Shown: positions 42,265-58,835 of the stretch, piece by piece
Layout of the letters: the number at the start of each line of letters is the position of its first letter
Numbering within the stretch: the stretch's first letter is position 1
Assembly (NCBI RefSeq): GCF_003334405.1
Contig: NZ_QOWM01000004.1
Length of the DNA stretch: 64,000 bases
DNA from: Escherichia coli
GTDB taxonomy: Bacteria; Pseudomonadota; Gammaproteobacteria; Enterobacterales; Enterobacteriaceae
Strand: one strand, 5' to 3'
The notes under the pieces: generated by a model
Database searches by the model: none
What the model was told of the DNA's origin: nothing
Seen by the model: only the letters and a program-made list of their open reading frames with translations
Made by a program: the position numbers and the translations under genes

Positions 42265-42359
42265 GGGACTTAGCCTGCGGCGGTTTTGTTTGGCTTCAGC
42301 AGCGGGTTGCGCTCCCTTAATGTGCCTCGCCATATAAATTGAATGGTGCAGGGAGCGCG

Positions 42360-42389
42360 CAGGGGGCGGCCAATCGCCGCCGCCCCCTG
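42360..42389. other. GC-rich perfect 11-bp-stem hairpin (cagggggcggc...gccgccccctg) in the putP-efeU intergenic region
   Basis: Read directly; nested within a second inverted repeat (ttgcgctccc 42307-42316 / gggagcgcgc 42351-42360). Confidence 0.4.
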
Positions 42390-42562
42390 CTGTCCCGGCC
42401 TTCGGGGAACGCTTCAGCGATTTTGACGCCACCAACACCCGAGCTGTTATTATGTTCCGGGCAAAAAGTTAGATTTGATAATCGCGGATGGACGAAATTG
42501 CTTGATACACCCGCTTATCAGTTTTACATGGAAGCTCTGATGCATTGAGTCTGGACAGTTTT

Positions 42563-42598
42563 GTCGGCTGGATACGGCGTTTACGCGGCATCCGGCAA
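42563..42598. repeat. REP element (gtcggctggatacggcgtttacgcggcatccggcaag)
   Basis: REP-consensus-like palindrome read from sequence. Confidence 0.55.
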
Positions 42599-42729
42599 GA
42601 ACACATGGTTCTTTGCAAACAATCCCATCTTTCTACCCTGGAATAATCGTTTATATCCCTTGGCATTACCTCTCTTTGTTTACATTCCAACATCATTTTA
42701 TAAACATTCCGCTTGTGTTTTTCTTTGCC

Positions 42730-42749
42730 GTAATGATAATCGCTATCAC
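42730..42749 (+). promoter_or_regulatory. Candidate Fur box upstream of efeU (gtaatgataatcgctatcac, about 15 of 19 matches to GATAATGATAATCATTATC)
   Basis: Read from sequence about 60 nt upstream of the efeU ATG. Confidence 0.55.
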
Positions 42750-42806
42750 TGCGATTTACTTTTCTTTGCATAGATTGACTCAGAAAAACGTTTAAGGGTG
42801 GGTGGC

Positions 42807-43637
42807 ATGTTTGTTCCGTTTCTCATTATGTTGCGCGAAGGACTTGAAGCCGCGCTGATTGTCAGTTTGATTGCCAGCTATCTTAAGCGTACCCAGCGAG
42901 GCCGATGGATTGGTGTGATGTGGATTGGCGTGTTGCTTGCCGCTGCGTTGTGCCTGGGCTTGGGTATCTTCATTAACGAAACCACCGGCGAATTTCCGCA
43001 AAAAGAACAGGAACTGTTTGAAGGTATCGTGGCGGTGATCGCCGTGGTGATCCTTACCTGGATGGTTTTCTGGATGCGCAAAGTGTCGCGCAACGTCAAA
43101 GTGCAACTGGAACAGGCAGTCGATAGCGCATTGCAGCGTGGAAATCATCATGGCTGGGCGCTGGTGATGATGGTCTTTTTTGCCGTTGCAAGGGAAGGGC
43201 TGGAGTCGGTCTTTTTCCTGCTGGCGGCATTTCAACAAGATGTCGGGATCTGGCCGCCGCTGGGTGCAATGCTCGGTCTTGCTACTGCCGTGGTGCTAGG
43301 CTTCCTGCTCTACTGGGGCGGTATTCGCCTCAATCTTGGTGCATTTTTTAAATGGACCAGCCTGTTTATTCTCTTCGTCGCCGCAGGGCTGGCAGCTGGT
43401 GCCATTCGCGCATTTCATGAAGCCGGATTGTGGAACCACTTTCAGGAAATCGCCTTCGATATGAGTGCGGTGCTCTCAACTCACTCGCTGTTTGGCACGC
43501 TGATGGAAGGGATTTTTGGCTATCAGGAAGCGCCGAGCGTCAGCGAAGTCGCCGTCTGGTTTATTTATCTCATCCCGGCGCTGGTGGCATTTGCTCTGCC
43601 ACCACGCGCAGGGGCGACAGCGTCTCGCTCCGCGTAA
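42807..43637 (+). CDS. efeU: Ferrous-iron permease (FTR1/OFeT family); the reading frame is intact here
   Basis: Track ORF 42798..43637 begins at GTG; ATG at 42807 gives 276 aa MFVPFLIMLREGLEAALIVSLIAS with two REGLE motifs and no frameshift. Confidence 0.9.
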   Translation: MFVPFLIMLREGLEAALIVSLIASYLKRTQRGRWIGVMWIGVLLAAALCLGLGIFINETTGEFPQKEQELFEGIVAVIAVVILTWMVFWMRKVSRNVKVQLEQAVDSALQRGNHHGWALVMMVFFAVAREGLESVFFLLAAFQQDVGIWPPLGAMLGLATAVVLGFLLYWGGIRLNLGAFFKWTSLFILFVAAGLAAGAIRAFHEAGLWNHFQEIAFDMSAVLSTHSLFGTLMEGIFGYQEAPSVSEVAVWFIYLIPALVAFALPPRAGATASRSA

Positions 43638-43694
43638 CAAATACGACGCAAACTCTTGCTTAGTTACAACATACTTTAAAGGGATAGTCTCGTC

Positions 43695-44822
43695 ATGACC
43701 ATTAACTTCCGCCGTAACGCATTGCAGTTGAGCGTGGCTGCGCTGTTTTCTTCTGCTTTTATGGCTAACGCCGCTGATGTGCCGCAGGTCAAAGTGACCG
43801 TGACGGATAAGCAGTGCGAACCGATGACCATTACGGTTAACGCCGGGAAAACACAGTTCATTATTCAGAACCACAGCCAGAAGGCGCTGGAGTGGGAGAT
43901 CCTCAAAGGCGTGATGGTGGTGGAAGAGCGGGAAAATATCGCCCCTGGCTTTAGCCAGAAAATGACGGCGAATTTACAGCCTGGCGAATACGATATGACC
44001 TGCGGTCTGCTGACTAACCCGAAAGGGAAGTTGATCGTCAAAGGTGAGGCAACGGCGGATGCGGCGCAAAGTGATGCGCTGTTAAGTCTTGGTGGTGCAA
44101 TTACTGCATATAAAGCGTATGTCATGGCGGAAACCACGCAGCTGGTGACCGACACCAAAGCCTTTACCGACGCGATTAAAGCAGGCGATATCGAAAAAGC
44201 GAAAGCACTGTATGCACCGACGCGCCAGCACTATGAGCGTATTGAACCGATTGCTGAACTGTTCTCCGATCTGGATGGCAGCATTGACGCCCGTGAAGAT
44301 GATTACGAGCAAAAAGCCGCCGACCCAAAATTCACTGGTTTCCACCGTCTGGAAAAAGCATTGTTTGGCGACAACACCACCAAAGGGATGGATCAGTACG
44401 CTGAGCAGCTTTATACCGATGTGGTCGATTTGCAAAAACGCATCAGTGAACTGGCTTTCCCACCTTCAAAAGTGGTCGGCGGCGCAGCCGGACTGATTGA
44501 GGAAGTGGCAGCCAGCAAAATTAGCGGTGAAGAAGATCGCTACAGCCACACCGATCTGTGGGATTTCCAGGCTAACGTTGAAGGCTCGCAGAAAATTGTC
44601 GATTTGCTGCGTCCACAACTGCAAAAAGCCAACCCGGAACTGCTGGCAAAAGTCGATGCCAACTTTAAAAAGGTCGATACCATTCTGGCGAAATACCGTA
44701 CTAAAGACGGTTTTGAAACCTACGACAAATTGACCGATGCCGACCGGAATGCACTGAAAGGACCGATTACTGCGCTGGCGGAAGATCTGGCGCAACTTCG
44801 CGGTGTGCTGGGACTGGATTAA
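43695..44822 (+). CDS. efeO: Periplasmic iron-uptake component (cupredoxin / M75 peptidase-like)
   Basis: Track ORF of 375 aa with signal peptide [26 protein letters not shown]. Confidence 0.95.
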
Positions 44823-44827
44823 GCGTT

Positions 44828-46099
44828 ATGCAGTATAAAGATGAAAACGGCGTGAATGAACCGTCACGCCGACGTTTACTGAAAGTGATAGGTGCACTGG
44901 CGCTGGCGGGAAGTTGTCCGGTCGCTCATGCACAAAAAACGCAAAGTGCGCCGGGTACGCTTTCACCGGATGCTCGCAATGAGAAACAGCCGTTTTATGG
45001 TGAGCATCAGGCAGGGATCCTGACGCCACAACAGGCCGCAATGATGCTGGTGGCGTTTGATGTGCTTGCCAGCGATAAAGCCGATCTTGAGCGGTTGTTT
45101 CGCTTGTTGACTCAGCGTTTTGCTTTTCTGACTCAGGGCGGAGCAGCACCAGAAACGCCAAATCCGCGCCTGCCACCACTCGATTCCGGCATTCTTGGCG
45201 GCTACATTGCGCCCGATAATCTCACCATCACGTTATCGGTGGGTCACTCATTGTTTGATGAGCGCTTTGGCCTTGCGCCACAGATGCCAAAAAAGCTGCA
45301 GAAGATGACGCGTTTCCCCAACGACTCGCTGGATGCGGCGTTATGTCATGGTGATGTGTTGCTACAGATTTGCGCCAACACCCAGGACACGGTTATCCAT
45401 GCGCTGCGCGATATCATCAAACACACGCCGGATTTGCTCAGTGTGCGCTGGAAGCGGGAAGGGTTTATTTCCGATCACGCGGCGCGTAGTAAAGGCAAAG
45501 AGACGCCGATTAATTTGCTGGGTTTCAAAGACGGCACTGCCAATCCCGATAGCCAGAATGATAAGTTGATGCAAAAAGTGGTGTGGGTAACGGCAGATCA
45601 GCAGGAGCCTGCGTGGACAATCGGTGGCAGCTATCAGGCAGTACGCTTGATTCAGTTTCGAGTGGAATTTTGGGACAGAACGCCGCTGAAAGAACAGCAG
45701 ACGATTTTTGGCCGTGATAAGCAAACCGGTGCGCCGCTGGGAATGCAGCATGAGCATGATGTGCCTGATTACGCCAGCGACCCGGAAGGGAAGGTGATCG
45801 CGCTGGACAGCCATATCCGGCTGGCGAATCCCCGCACGGCGGAGAGTGAGTCCAGCCTGATGCTGCGTCGTGGCTACAGTTATTCACTGGGCGTCACCAA
45901 CTCCGGGCAACTGGATATGGGGTTGCTGTTTGTCTGCTACCAACACGATCTGGAAAAAGGCTTCCTGACAGTACAAAAAAGGCTCAATGGCGAAGCGCTG
46001 GAGGAATACGTTAAACCTATCGGCGGCGGTTATTTTTTTGCGCTGCCGGGGGTGAAGGACGCGAACGATTATTTCGGAAGCGCGTTATTGCGGGTTTAA
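44828..46099 (+). CDS. efeB: Tat-exported dye-decolourising (DyP-type) peroxidase
   Basis: Track ORF of 423 aa; twin-arginine signal [17 protein letters not shown]. Confidence 0.95.
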
Positions 46100-46107
46100 T
46101 GTTTTTA

Positions 46108-46242
46108 GGCGGATAAGGCATTTGTGCGCAGATGCCTGATGCGACGCTTGCGCGTCTTATCATGCCTACAATCAGTGCGGGTTTGGTAGGCTGGATAAGG
46201 CGTTCACGCCGCATCCGGCGATCGTGCACTGATGCCTGATGC
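46108..46242. repeat. Cluster of REP elements (BIME) after efeB
   Basis: ggcggataaggcatttgtgcgcagatgcctgatgcgacgc and gtaggctggataaggcgttcacgccgcatccggcg read from sequence. Confidence 0.6.
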
Positions 46243-46443: not shown

Positions 46444-47508
46444 ATGGTAACGTCCTGTACTGGACATGTTTTAGATAATCAACGCGCCACCACTCGCGGA
46501 GTTTTCTCCTCCGGTAGTCATCTCGTCACTTTGCATTTTCAACCTCATCCTTTCTTTTCATGTGTTACCGACGCCGTAAACGGTGCGCGTAGCCGTTTTT
46601 CGGCATTTTATCCAAAAGCAAACTATGGCTTACAAGGAAGCCAACCCTCTGATGTTCGTGCGCATAATCGCGCTGCCAACGGCGCGTGTGATGAATACAA
46701 ACAACTCAAGGTGCTCTCCATGGGAAGACAAAAAGCAGTGATCAAAGCTCGTCGCGAGGCAAAACGTGTGCTGAGACGGGATTCGCGCAGCCATAAGCAG
46801 CGTGAAGAAGAATCGGTCACCTCGCTTGTGCAGATGGGCGGCGTAGAAGCCATTGGTATGGCCCGCGACAGTCGCGATACTTCGCCCATCCTCGCGCGAA
46901 ATGAAGCGCAATTGCACTATCTGAAGGCTATTGAGAGTAAGCAGCTGATATTCGCCACGGGCGAAGCCGGGTGCGGAAAAACCTGGATCAGCGCAGCAAA
47001 AGCGGCAGAGGCCCTGATACATAAGGATGTCGACAGGATTATCGTCACCCGTCCAGTTCTGCAAGCCGATGAAGATCTTGGCTTCTTACCTGGAGATATC
47101 GCAGAAAAGTTTGCTCCCTATTTTCGCCCGGTCTACGACGTGCTGGTCCGGCGCTTAGGGGCTTCCTTTATGCAGTACTGCCTGCGACCGGAAATAGGGA
47201 AGGTGGAAATTGCGCCGTTCGCCTATATGCGTGGACGTACCTTTGAAAATGCAGTCGTCATTCTTGACGAGGCGCAGAATGTGACTGCCGCGCAAATGAA
47301 AATGTTTTTAACCCGCCTCGGGGAGAACGTGACGGTTATCGTCAACGGTGATATCACGCAATGCGATTTGCCTCGCGGCGTGTGCTCCGGATTAAGTGAC
47401 GCGCTGGAACGTTTCGAAGAAGATGAAATGGTTGGGATCGTCCGGTTCGGTAAAGAGGACTGCGTACGTTCGGCACTTTGCCAACGTACGCTGCATGCCT
47501 ACAGTTAA
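46444..47508 (+). CDS. phoH: Phosphate-starvation-inducible ATPase PhoH
   Basis: Track ORF of 354 aa; Walker A GEAGCGKT; internal start MGRQKAVIK could give a shorter isoform. Confidence 0.92.
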   Translation: MVTSCTGHVLDNQRATTRGVFSSGSHLVTLHFQPHPFFSCVTDAVNGARSRFSAFYPKANYGLQGSQPSDVRAHNRAANGACDEYKQLKVLSMGRQKAVIKARREAKRVLRRDSRSHKQREEESVTSLVQMGGVEAIGMARDSRDTSPILARNEAQLHYLKAIESKQLIFATGEAGCGKTWISAAKAAEALIHKDVDRIIVTRPVLQADEDLGFLPGDIAEKFAPYFRPVYDVLVRRLGASFMQYCLRPEIGKVEIAPFAYMRGRTFENAVVILDEAQNVTAAQMKMFLTRLGENVTVIVNGDITQCDLPRGVCSGLSDALERFEEDEMVGIVRFGKEDCVRSALCQRTLHAYS

Positions 47509-55686: not shown

Positions 55687-55726
55687 AGCGGCATTTTGAT
55701 CCTACCCACGTAATATGGACACAGGC

Positions 55727-56593
55727 CTAAGCGAGGTTCTTGTTTTCAAATTGTTCCGGACTGAGGCCGCCACACCAACTGTGCCGCCGCCACCGATTGT
55801 AATCACATTCGATATAATTAAACACCGTTGCCCGCATTATTTCCCGGCTGATAAAGTGTTCTCCATGGATACATTCCACTTTCAGCGAATGAAAGAAGCT
55901 TTCCACGCAGGCATTATCGTAGCAGCAACCTTTTGCGCTCATACTTCCACGCAGATTATGCCGCTTCAGTTGCGCCTGATAATCTGCTGAACAGTACTGG
56001 CCTCCACGGTCCGTGTGAACGATAACGTTCCGGGGCCTCTTACGCCGCCACAGCGCCATCTGCAGGGCATCGCAGGCCAGTTGCGCCGTCATGCGTGGCG
56101 ACATTGACCAGCCAATAACGGCACGTGACCACAGGTCAATGACCACTGCCAGATACAGCCAGCCTTCATCTGTACGTAAGTACGTGATGTCTCCTGCCCA
56201 CTTCTGGTTCGGGCCACTGGCGTAAAAATCCTGCTCCAACAGATTTTCTGACACAGGCAGGCCGTGTGCGCGGTAGCTGACCGGGCTGAACTTCCGGGAG
56301 GCCTTTGCCCTCAGTCCCTGACGGCGCAGGCTTGCCGCCACGGTTTTTACGTTAAAGGGGTAACCCTGAGCACGCAGTTCATCCGTCAGGCGTGGGGCAC
56401 CGTAACGCTGTTTTGACCGGGTAAAAGCCGCGAGGACAACGCTGTCGCAGTGTTGGCGGAACTGCTGACGCGTGCTTATCCTTGTCCGCCGCTGACACCA
56501 CGTATACCAGCCGCTGCGGGCCACCCGGAGCACGCGGCACATTGCTTTGATGCTGAACTCAGCCTGATGTTTTTCAATAAAGACATACTTCAT
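55727..56593 (-). CDS. insF: IS3 transposase OrfB (DDE integrase domain)
   Basis: Track ORF of 288 aa, [30 protein letters not shown]. Confidence 0.93.
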
Positions 56594-56889
56594 TTCAGGC
56601 GCTTCGCGAAGTATGTCGCGGCCTTTTGGAGGATAGCCAGCTCTTCATCCCGTTCTGCCAGCTGGCGTTTGAGACGTGCAATCTCGGTAGACATCTCCAG
56701 TTCACGTTCAGAAGACGTCTGCTGATTTTGCTGTTTACTGCGCCAGTTGTAGAGTTGTGATTCATACAGGCTGAGTTCACGGGCTGCGGCAGTAACACCG
56801 ATGCGTTCAGCAAGCTTCAGGGCTTCACTGCGAAATTCAGGCGAATGCTGTTTACGGGGTTTTTTACTGGTTGATACTGTTTTTGTCAT
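56590..56889 (-). CDS. insE: IS3 transposase OrfA (HTH)
   Basis: Track ORF 56590..56898; ATG at 56889 gives 99 aa [32 protein letters not shown]; 4-nt overlap with orfB typical of programmed -1 frameshifting. Confidence 0.93.
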
Positions 56890-56954
56890 GTGAGTCACCT
56901 CTGACTGAGAGTTTACTCACTTAGCCGCGTGTCCACTATTGCTGGGTAAGATCA

Positions 56955-58281: not shown

Positions 58282-58432
58282 GGAAGTGATAGGAAGTGAC
58301 CAGATAATACATATATGTTCTGTACTCTCTTGCGCATTTTGATTGTTGACTGAGTAACCAGACAGTTGATGTGCACGATTTCCCCTCGCCCTAACAGACG
58401 TGGGCGGGGGCACCCGGTGTGTGCAATATACG

Positions 58433-58460
58433 AAAAAAAAGCCCGTACTTTCGTACGAGC
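58433..58460 (-). terminator. Intrinsic terminator copy in repeat unit 1 (minus-strand GCUCGUAC-GAAA-GUACGGGC followed by U8)
   Basis: Hairpin 58441-58460 and A8 on plus strand 58433-58440, read from sequence. Confidence 0.6.
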
Positions 58461-58613
58461 TCTTCTTTAAATATGGCGGTGAGGGGGGGATTGACTCGCT
58501 TCGCTCGCCCTGCGGGCAGCCCGCTCACTGCGTTCACGGTCTGTCCAACTGGCTGTCGCCAGTTGTCGAACCCCGGTCGGGGCTTCTCATCCCCCCGGTG
58601 TGTGCAATATACG

Positions 58614-58641
58614 AAAAAAAAGCCCGTACTTTCGTACGAGC
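58614..58641 (-). terminator. Intrinsic terminator copy in repeat unit 2
   Basis: Identical hairpin plus U8, 181 bp from the unit-1 copy. Confidence 0.6.
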
Positions 58642-58794
58642 TCTTCTTTAAATATGGCGGTGAGGGGGGGATTGACTCGCTTCGCTCGCCCTGCGGGCAG
58701 CCCGCTCACTGCGTTCACGGTCTGTCCAACTGGCTGTCGCCAGTTGTCGAACCCCGGTCGGGGCTTCTCATCCCCCCGGTGTGTGCAATATACG

Positions 58795-58822
58795 AAAAAA
58801 AAGCCCGTACTTTCGTACGAGC
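58795..58822 (-). terminator. Intrinsic terminator of serX (hairpin plus U8, 13 nt after the tRNA CCA end)
   Basis: Hairpin 58803-58822 and A8 on plus strand 58795-58802; GNRA (GAAA) loop. Confidence 0.75.
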
Positions 58823-58835
58823 TCTTCTTTAAATA

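What the first reader, a model, noticed from the sequence alone, without database searches (positions are those of the whole stretch)
42807..43637. efeU is one intact 276-codon frame, so the EfeUOB ferrous-iron transporter is predicted functional
Seen directly: a single ORF with both REGLE iron-permease motifs, a Fur-box-like sequence 60 nt upstream (42730-42749), and efeO/efeB following intact. Established knowledge as I recall it: in E. coli K-12 efeU is cryptic because of a frameshift, whereas other strains such as O157:H7 carry an intact gene. Inference: this strain has a working low-pH ferrous-iron uptake system, which again argues against an unmodified K-12 origin.
Basis: partly seen in the sequence, partly recalled or inferred. 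Interest (0 to 1): 0.4.

Follow-up and report, generated by a model that had tools for sequence, protein, structure and literature searches.

The report
Intact wild-type efeU iron permease gene
The window carries the normal, uninterrupted efeUOB ferrous-iron uptake operon found in most E. coli; it differs from laboratory K-12 by the one base K-12 has lost, which is real but already well known.

Summary
An ORF at 42807-43637 (+) encodes 276 aa, with REGLE motifs at residues 10-14 and 129-133. It is a full-length FTR1/EfeU match, and intact efeO and efeB follow it.

Across window 42500-46200 the sequence differs from K-12 MG1655 by one base. The GG at 42912-42913 (codon Gly36) is a single G in K-12, which then reads Ile35-Val-stop.

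The K-12 allele occurs in 367 of 5426 complete E. coli genomes, and those listed are mostly K-12 laboratory derivatives. The intact allele with an identical 41-mer occurs in 3929. Intact is therefore the norm.

The EfeU protein is identical to that of an O157:H7 strain, the serotype in which the system was shown to work. EfeO and EfeB are identical to K-12's.

The window is not K-12. It has 15 substitutions against MG1655 outside a repeat array, an empty IS1D site and one fewer 181-bp RtT repeat. It matches wild K-12-like (apparently phylogroup A) isolates.

Interest is low.

The parts
42807..43637 (+). efeU CDS, 276 aa plus stop. It encodes the inner-membrane FTR1-family Fe2+ permease.
   Evidence: ORF shown. 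Pfam FTR1 matches at 2e-89 over residues 1-275. The NCBIfam EfeU equivalog NF041756 scores 331 bits against a cutoff of 255, and TIGR00145 scores 352 against 304. The protein is identical to WP_000497942.1 of an O157:H7 strain and of NCTC9038.
42912..42913 (+). GG dinucleotide in codon Gly36 (GGT). K-12 has a single G here, which gives Ile35-Val36-stop.
   Evidence: Global alignment to NC_000913.3 shows this as the only difference in window 42500-46200. Translation of the K-12 pseudogene confirms the early stop.
42834..42848 (+). First REGLE (REXXE) motif, aa 10-14, within the first hydrophobic segment.
   Evidence: Motif search and hydropathy segments.
43191..43205 (+). Second REGLE (REXXE) motif, aa 129-133, within the fourth hydrophobic segment.
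   Evidence: Motif search and hydropathy segments.
42729..42747 (+). Fur-box-like site, matching 15 of 19 consensus positions, 60 nt upstream of the ATG.
   Evidence: It is the best match to the 19-bp consensus in the whole window on both strands. It is identical in K-12, O157:H7 and NCTC9038. A Fur box in the efeU promoter has been reported computationally, and efeU is listed as Fur- and CpxR-regulated (PMC4145685).
42755..42769 (-). CpxR-box-like site GCAAAGAAAAGTAAA, one mismatch from GTAAA-N5-GTAAA, lying between the Fur box and the start codon.
   Evidence: Only 5 sites with at most 1 mismatch occur in the 2 x 64 kb scanned. efeU is listed as negatively CpxR-regulated (PMC9600279). Binding at this exact site is an inference.
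43695..44822 (+). efeO, 375 aa. Periplasmic protein with a cupredoxin domain and an imelysin (M75) domain.
   Evidence: NCBIfam EfeO scores 772 bits against a cutoff of 297. Pfam finds Cupredoxin_1 and Peptidase_M75. PDB 7WGU matches at 2.8e-230. The protein is identical to K-12 EfeO.
44828..46099 (+). efeB, 423 aa. DyP-type haem peroxidase/deferrochelatase with an N-terminal SRRRLLK twin-arginine motif.
   Evidence: NCBIfam TIGR01412 scores 618 bits against a cutoff of 428. Pfam finds Dyp_perox_N and Dyp_perox_C. PDB 2Y4F and 3O72 match. The protein is identical to K-12 EfeB. The RR motif is read directly from the translation.

Best explanation
This is the ordinary wild-type efeUOB operon of a non-K-12 E. 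coli that is closely related to K-12 (apparently phylogroup A).

efeU encodes a seven-helix FTR1-type inner-membrane permease. Its two REGLE motifs, in helices 1 and 4, line the iron path. EfeO (cupredoxin plus M75 domain) and the Tat-exported haem peroxidase EfeB act in the periplasm. Together they import ferrous iron.

Expression is expected when iron is scarce, because Fur repression at the box overlapping the promoter is lifted. It is also expected at acid pH, when CpxR repression is relieved.

K-12 has lost one G in codon 36, which truncates EfeU after helix 1. This window has not lost it, so the system is predicted to work.

Shown here: the intact frame, the family membership of all three proteins, the exact indel, its distribution across genomes, and protein identity to an O157:H7 EfeU. 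Inferred from literature: transport activity, low-pH specificity, and Fur/CpxR control.
For: The ORF is intact with both motifs. All three proteins score above the curated NCBIfam cut-offs, and the Pfam domain architectures fit.

There is a single-base difference from MG1655 across the operon and its promoter. K-12 efeU is annotated as a pseudogene or frameshifted.

The K-12 allele occurs in 367 of 5426 genomes and the intact allele in 3929 of 5426.

EfeU is 100% identical to the EfeU of O157:H7 strain PV15-279. EfeO differs from that strain at 1 residue and EfeB at 5, and both are identical to K-12.

The Fur box is the top-scoring site in the window and is conserved.

Literature: the K-12 frameshift abolishes function and an in-frame operon restores growth under iron restriction (PMC2808357; PMC7549933). 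Fur and CpxR regulation is documented (PMC4145685; PMC9600279).
Against: The simple sigma-70 scan found no promoter-like site upstream of efeU at its thresholds, so promoter placement is inferred. A candidate is TTGTGT-16 nt-GATAAT at 42713-42740, overlapping the Fur box.

The primary papers (Grosse 2006, Cao 2007) are not in the held library, so their details rest on secondary citations and on my recollection.

The state of the rest of the genome is unknown from a 64-kb window. This includes tat, fur and cpxRA.
Confidence: 0.9

Rival explanations
1. The window is K-12, and the extra G is a sequencing or assembly error that falsely restores the frame.
For: The operon differs from MG1655 only at this base. 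Single-base indels are the commonest assembly error.
Against: The window also differs from MG1655 by 15 substitutions outside the RtT repeat array, lacks IS1D (leaving a clean single copy of the 9-bp target GACAATACG), and has one fewer 181-bp repeat. It is 100% identical over 24 kb, including efeU, to independent wild-isolate assemblies. The site is a GG dinucleotide, not a long homopolymer. The same 41-mer occurs in 3929 genomes.
Confidence: 0.02
2. The window comes from an engineered K-12 derivative in which efeU was deliberately repaired. By my recollection of Cao 2007, such strains were made.
For: The operon is nucleotide-identical to K-12 apart from the restored G.
Against: An allelic repair would not remove IS1D precisely. 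It would not change 15 scattered bases across 64 kb or alter the RtT repeat number. The whole haplotype matches many wild isolates from humans, animals and food.
Confidence: 0.02
3. The frame is intact, but the system is not functional or not used in this strain. It could be silenced, or made redundant by other iron uptake systems.
For: No expression or transport data exist for this strain. An ExPEC efeOB mutant showed no virulence defect (PMC7549933), so the system's contribution can be masked.
Against: All three proteins are identical or nearly identical to versions shown to work. The promoter region from about 42672 onward, including the Fur box, is conserved with O157:H7.
Confidence: 0.06

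Closest known systems
EfeUOB (YcdNOB) of E. coli O157:H7 and Nissle 1917 (Grosse et al. 2006; Cao et al. 2007)
   Same: Gene order is the same (efeU-efeO-efeB). The EfeU protein is identical to that of O157:H7 strain PV15-279. EfeO differs at 1 residue and EfeB at 5. The Fur box is the same.
   Different: The upstream intergenic region diverges before window position ~42672. O157:H7 carries an extra 1344-nt gene between putP and efeU. There is no functional difference that I can see.
efeU pseudogene of E. coli K-12 (b4490)
   Same: The nucleotide sequence across promoter, efeU, efeO and efeB is identical apart from one base.
   Different: K-12 lacks one G of the GG at codon 36, giving a 36-aa product that ends after helix 1. 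The window has the intact codon.
Ftr1p high-affinity iron permease of Saccharomyces cerevisiae (Pfam FTR1, PF03239)
   Same: The match to the FTR1 profile is full length. There are two REXXE motifs and about seven hydrophobic segments.
   Different: The partner is not a Fet3p multicopper oxidase. The bacterial system uses EfeO (cupredoxin plus M75) and the DyP peroxidase EfeB. The substrate is Fe2+ at low pH, according to the literature.

Membership tests
EfeU / FTR1 iron permease (PF03239; NCBIfam NF041756) | Full-length match to the family profile above the curated threshold | tested here: met
   Pfam FTR1 matches at 2e-89 over residues 1-275 of 276, covering model positions 1-283 of 284. 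NF041756 scores 331.2 bits against a cutoff of 255, and TIGR00145 scores 351.7 against 303.8.
EfeU / FTR1 iron permease (PF03239; NCBIfam NF041756) | Two REXXE (here REGLE) motifs in transmembrane helices 1 and 4 | tested here: met
   REGLE occurs at aa 10 and aa 129, inside hydrophobic segments 1-25 and 118-142.
EfeU / FTR1 iron permease (PF03239; NCBIfam NF041756) | About seven transmembrane segments | tested here: met
   A Kyte-Doolittle scan gave seven distinct hydrophobic stretches (1-25, 32-62, 68-95, 118-142, 146-176, 175-205, 242-269). This is a crude method and no dedicated topology predictor was run.
EfeUOB tripartite system | efeU followed in the same orientation by efeO (cupredoxin plus M75) and efeB (DyP peroxidase with a Tat signal) | tested here: met
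   Coordinates are, NCBIfam matches and Pfam matches. PDB 7WGU, 2Y4F and 3O72 match. The SRRRLLK motif is visible in the EfeB N-terminus.
EfeUOB tripartite system | Fur-repressed, CpxR-repressed promoter | tested here: inconclusive
   Sequence matches are present: a Fur box at 15/19 that is the best in the window, and a CpxR-like box with 1 mismatch. Regulation is documented in the literature. Binding was not tested.
EfeUOB tripartite system | Fe2+ uptake activity at low pH | not testable with these tools
   This needs 55Fe transport or growth assays. It is inferred from protein identity to an O157:H7 EfeU and from the literature.

The most novel reading that the evidence does not exclude
The K-12 efeU deletion may not be a laboratory artefact. 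It may have arisen in the wild on a haplotype like this window's.

Strain EC06, recorded as a human gut isolate from Spain, carries the deletion. Yet it keeps window-type alleles at two yccE positions where MG1655 differs, and it has a private SNP and six RtT repeats.

The window's operon differs from K-12 by that one base only. The window strain and K-12-like strains would therefore form a natural near-isogenic pair for asking why EfeUOB was lost.
Probability: 0.3. Interest if true: 0.2.

Novelty: already known. Interest (0 to 1): 0.07.

Why it matters
It matters little beyond bookkeeping. It confirms that the window is not from K-12 and that this strain should have the acid-pH ferrous-iron importer that K-12 lacks. 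This is relevant only if the strain's iron physiology is compared with K-12. That K-12 is the exception and nearly all other E. coli are intact has been known since 2006-2007. The genome counts obtained here (367 with the K-12 allele, at least 3929 intact, of 5426) simply quantify it.

Tried and rejected
- The primary paper Cao et al. 2007 (PMID 17627767) is not held, so secondary citations were used instead.
- One literature query was swamped by DNA-repair papers, and another was rejected for a colon in 'O157:H7'.
- The consensus sigma-70 scan found nothing upstream of efeU, so no promoter is claimed beyond a hand-read candidate.
- A PDB sequence search for EfeU found no solved relative at E <= 0.01.
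- The weak Pfam MFS_1 hit on EfeU (4e-6) overlaps the far stronger FTR1 match on a hydrophobic protein, and I discount it.
- I first read the BLAST offsets as the window having an extra 181-bp repeat. TRF on both sequences showed the reverse, 2.4 copies against 3.4 in MG1655.
- I could not assign the window to one named strain. Different thirds of it are 100% identical to many wild isolates, including Z217-2/-4 and NCTC9087.
- About 1130 genomes matched neither 41-mer. Their efeU state was not determined.

Full report
**Observation**

The window has one ORF at 42798-43637 on the + strand. From the ATG at 42807 it runs 831 nt, which is 276 codons plus TAA. RefSeq annotation of the near-identical genome NCTC9038 and of an O157:H7 genome uses the same 831-nt CDS.

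The protein has REGLE at residues 10-14 and 129-133. These fall inside the first and fourth of about seven hydrophobic segments.

It matches Pfam FTR1 end to end (2e-89). It also exceeds the curated NCBIfam cut-offs for EfeU: NF041756 scores 331 bits against 255, and TIGR00145 scores 352 against 304.

efeO (43695-44822) and efeB (44828-46099) follow in the same orientation.
- EfeO has Cupredoxin_1 and Peptidase_M75 domains and matches the solved EfeO structure 7WGU.
- EfeB has both DyP peroxidase domains and matches YcdB/EfeB structures 2Y4F and 3O72. An SRRRLLK twin-arginine motif is visible near its N-terminus.
- EfeU itself has no solved relative detectable by sequence.

**Comparison with K-12**

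MG1655 annotates efeU (b4490, 1081356-1082185, 830 nt) as a pseudogene. A K-12-derived RefSeq record marks it 'frameshifted'.

Global alignment of window 42500-46200 with MG1655 shows exactly one internal difference. The GG at 42912-42913 (codon Gly36, GGT) is a single G in K-12. K-12 therefore reads ...Trp34-Ile35-Val-stop. The rest of the protein continues in another frame, so helices 2-7 and the second REGLE motif are lost.

**How common each state is**

I used 41-mers centred on the indel. Any 28-base megablast seed must then span the site, which makes the search allele-specific.
- The K-12 allele was found in 367 of 5426 complete E. coli genomes. The 60 listed are mostly K-12 laboratory strains and their derivatives, such as MG1655, W3110, DH10B, MC4100, TOP10 and XL1-Blue.
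- The intact 41-mer was found in 3929 of 5426 genomes, including O157:H7.
- The remaining ~1130 genomes have other substitutions in the 41-mer and were not classified.

Intact efeU is thus the species norm, and K-12 is the exception.

**Is it likely to work?**

The window's EfeU is amino-acid identical to the EfeU of O157:H7 strain PV15-279 (WP_000497942.1). EfeO differs from that strain's at one residue and EfeB at five, and both are identical to the K-12 proteins.

Papers held here state three relevant things.
- The MG1655 transporter is non-functional because of the efeU frameshift (PMC2808357).
[quoted passage not shown] 2007).
- EfeU is an Ftr1p homologue that needs EfeO and EfeB (PMC4746246).

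From memory of the Cao 2007 abstract, repair of the single-base deletion in K-12 gave a functional system. If so, the window's operon is nucleotide-identical to that repaired operon. The paper is not in the library, so this point rests on recollection.

**Regulation**

42729-42747 matches 15 of 19 consensus positions. It is the only such site on either strand of the 64-kb window, and the same site read on the opposite strand scores 14/19, as expected for a palindromic operator. It is identical in K-12, O157:H7 and NCTC9038.

A CpxR-box-like sequence with one mismatch lies at 42755-42769 on the minus strand. Only five sites that good occur in the 128 kb scanned.

efeU is listed as Fur- and CpxR-regulated, with a computationally detected Fur box (PMC4145685), and as negatively CpxR-regulated (PMC9600279).

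The simple sigma-70 scan found no promoter upstream of efeU. A hand-read candidate, TTGTGT-16 nt-GATAAT at 42713-42740, overlaps the Fur box but is inference only.

**Origin of the window**

The window aligns to MG1655 1037773-1102729 at about 99.97% identity. The differences are:
- 15 substitutions outside the RtT repeat array, plus two positions inside it;
- no IS1D between gfcA and cspH, with a single copy of the 9-bp target GACAATACG that is duplicated in K-12;
- 2.4 rather than 3.4 copies of a 181-bp RtT repeat next to serX.

The IS3 that K-12 calls IS3D is present at the same site, but more than a thousand wild genomes share that arrangement. Each third of the window is 100% identical to wild isolates from humans, animals and food.

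This density of differences is well above what I recall separating K-12 substrains (recollection, not tested here).

**Verdict**

Nothing here is new. This is the wild-type efeUOB operon, and the K-12 frameshift has been textbook knowledge since 2006-2007.

The only mildly interesting by-product concerns strain EC06, recorded as a human gut isolate. It carries the K-12 deletion but has non-MG1655 alleles nearby. This hints that the deletion may not be confined to laboratory stocks. It would need a whole-genome phylogeny to settle.

Noticed in passing
window 11997-12005: This is an empty IS1 site between gfcA and cspH. The window has a single copy of GACAATACG, whereas K-12 MG1655 has IS1D (1049778-1050545) flanked by that 9-bp duplication. 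From memory, this IS1 is what silences the gfc (group 4 capsule) operon in K-12. If so, it is a second K-12-specific lesion absent from the window.
   Followed up: partly
window 58413-58854: A 181-bp tandem repeat carrying RtT RNA matches (Rfam RF00391 at 58474-58610 and 58655-58791) lies just downstream of tRNA-Ser serX (58836-58923, minus strand). The window has 2.4 copies against 3.4 in MG1655. RefSeq annotates six RtT units in EC06 and two in SY3626C1 and TP6-2. The array length is therefore highly variable among near-identical strains.
   Followed up: partly
window ~55697-56954: An IS3 element sits at the same site as K-12 IS3D, between dgcT and the truncated ymdE (an ACP S-malonyltransferase fragment). 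The arrangement is shared by more than 1000 complete genomes, so it is an old insertion rather than a K-12 marker.
   Followed up: partly
L007 (NZ_CM169496.1, strain EC06) 19916-20745 and flanks: EC06 is recorded as a human gut isolate from Spain. It carries the K-12 efeU 1-bp deletion. It also has window-type alleles at K-12 positions 1064298 and 1065060 (yccE), a private SNP at 1074093, and six RtT repeats. It could be a wild relative of K-12 carrying the frameshift, or a K-12 derivative or contaminant. This is unresolved.
   Followed up: partly
window 42265-42704 (putP-efeU intergenic region): The upstream part of the intergenic region varies between lineages. Megablast alignments of other E. 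coli genomes begin at window ~42642, ~42672 or ~42704. O157:H7 has an extra 1344-nt hypothetical gene on the minus strand between putP and efeU. From 42679 to the ATG, the window and O157:H7 differ at only four positions, and the Fur box is identical.
   Followed up: partly
window 47310-47503 (-): A strong Rfam match to Ysr251 (a Yersinia antisense sRNA; 189 bits against a gathering score of 100) lies antisense to the 3' end of phoH.
   Followed up: no
window 46444-47508 (+): The phoH reading frame is open for 354 aa from the ATG at 46444, as in the MG1655 annotation. RefSeq PGAP records of near-identical strains annotate only a 789-nt (262-aa) version. This is a start-codon annotation discrepancy.
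   Followed up: no
window 23861-23939 (-), 29826-29868 (-), 12756-13178 (+): Other Rfam gathering-level matches are naRNA4 (REP-derived nucleoid-associated RNA), ES036, and the cspA-type thermoregulator leader upstream of cspG.
   Followed up: no
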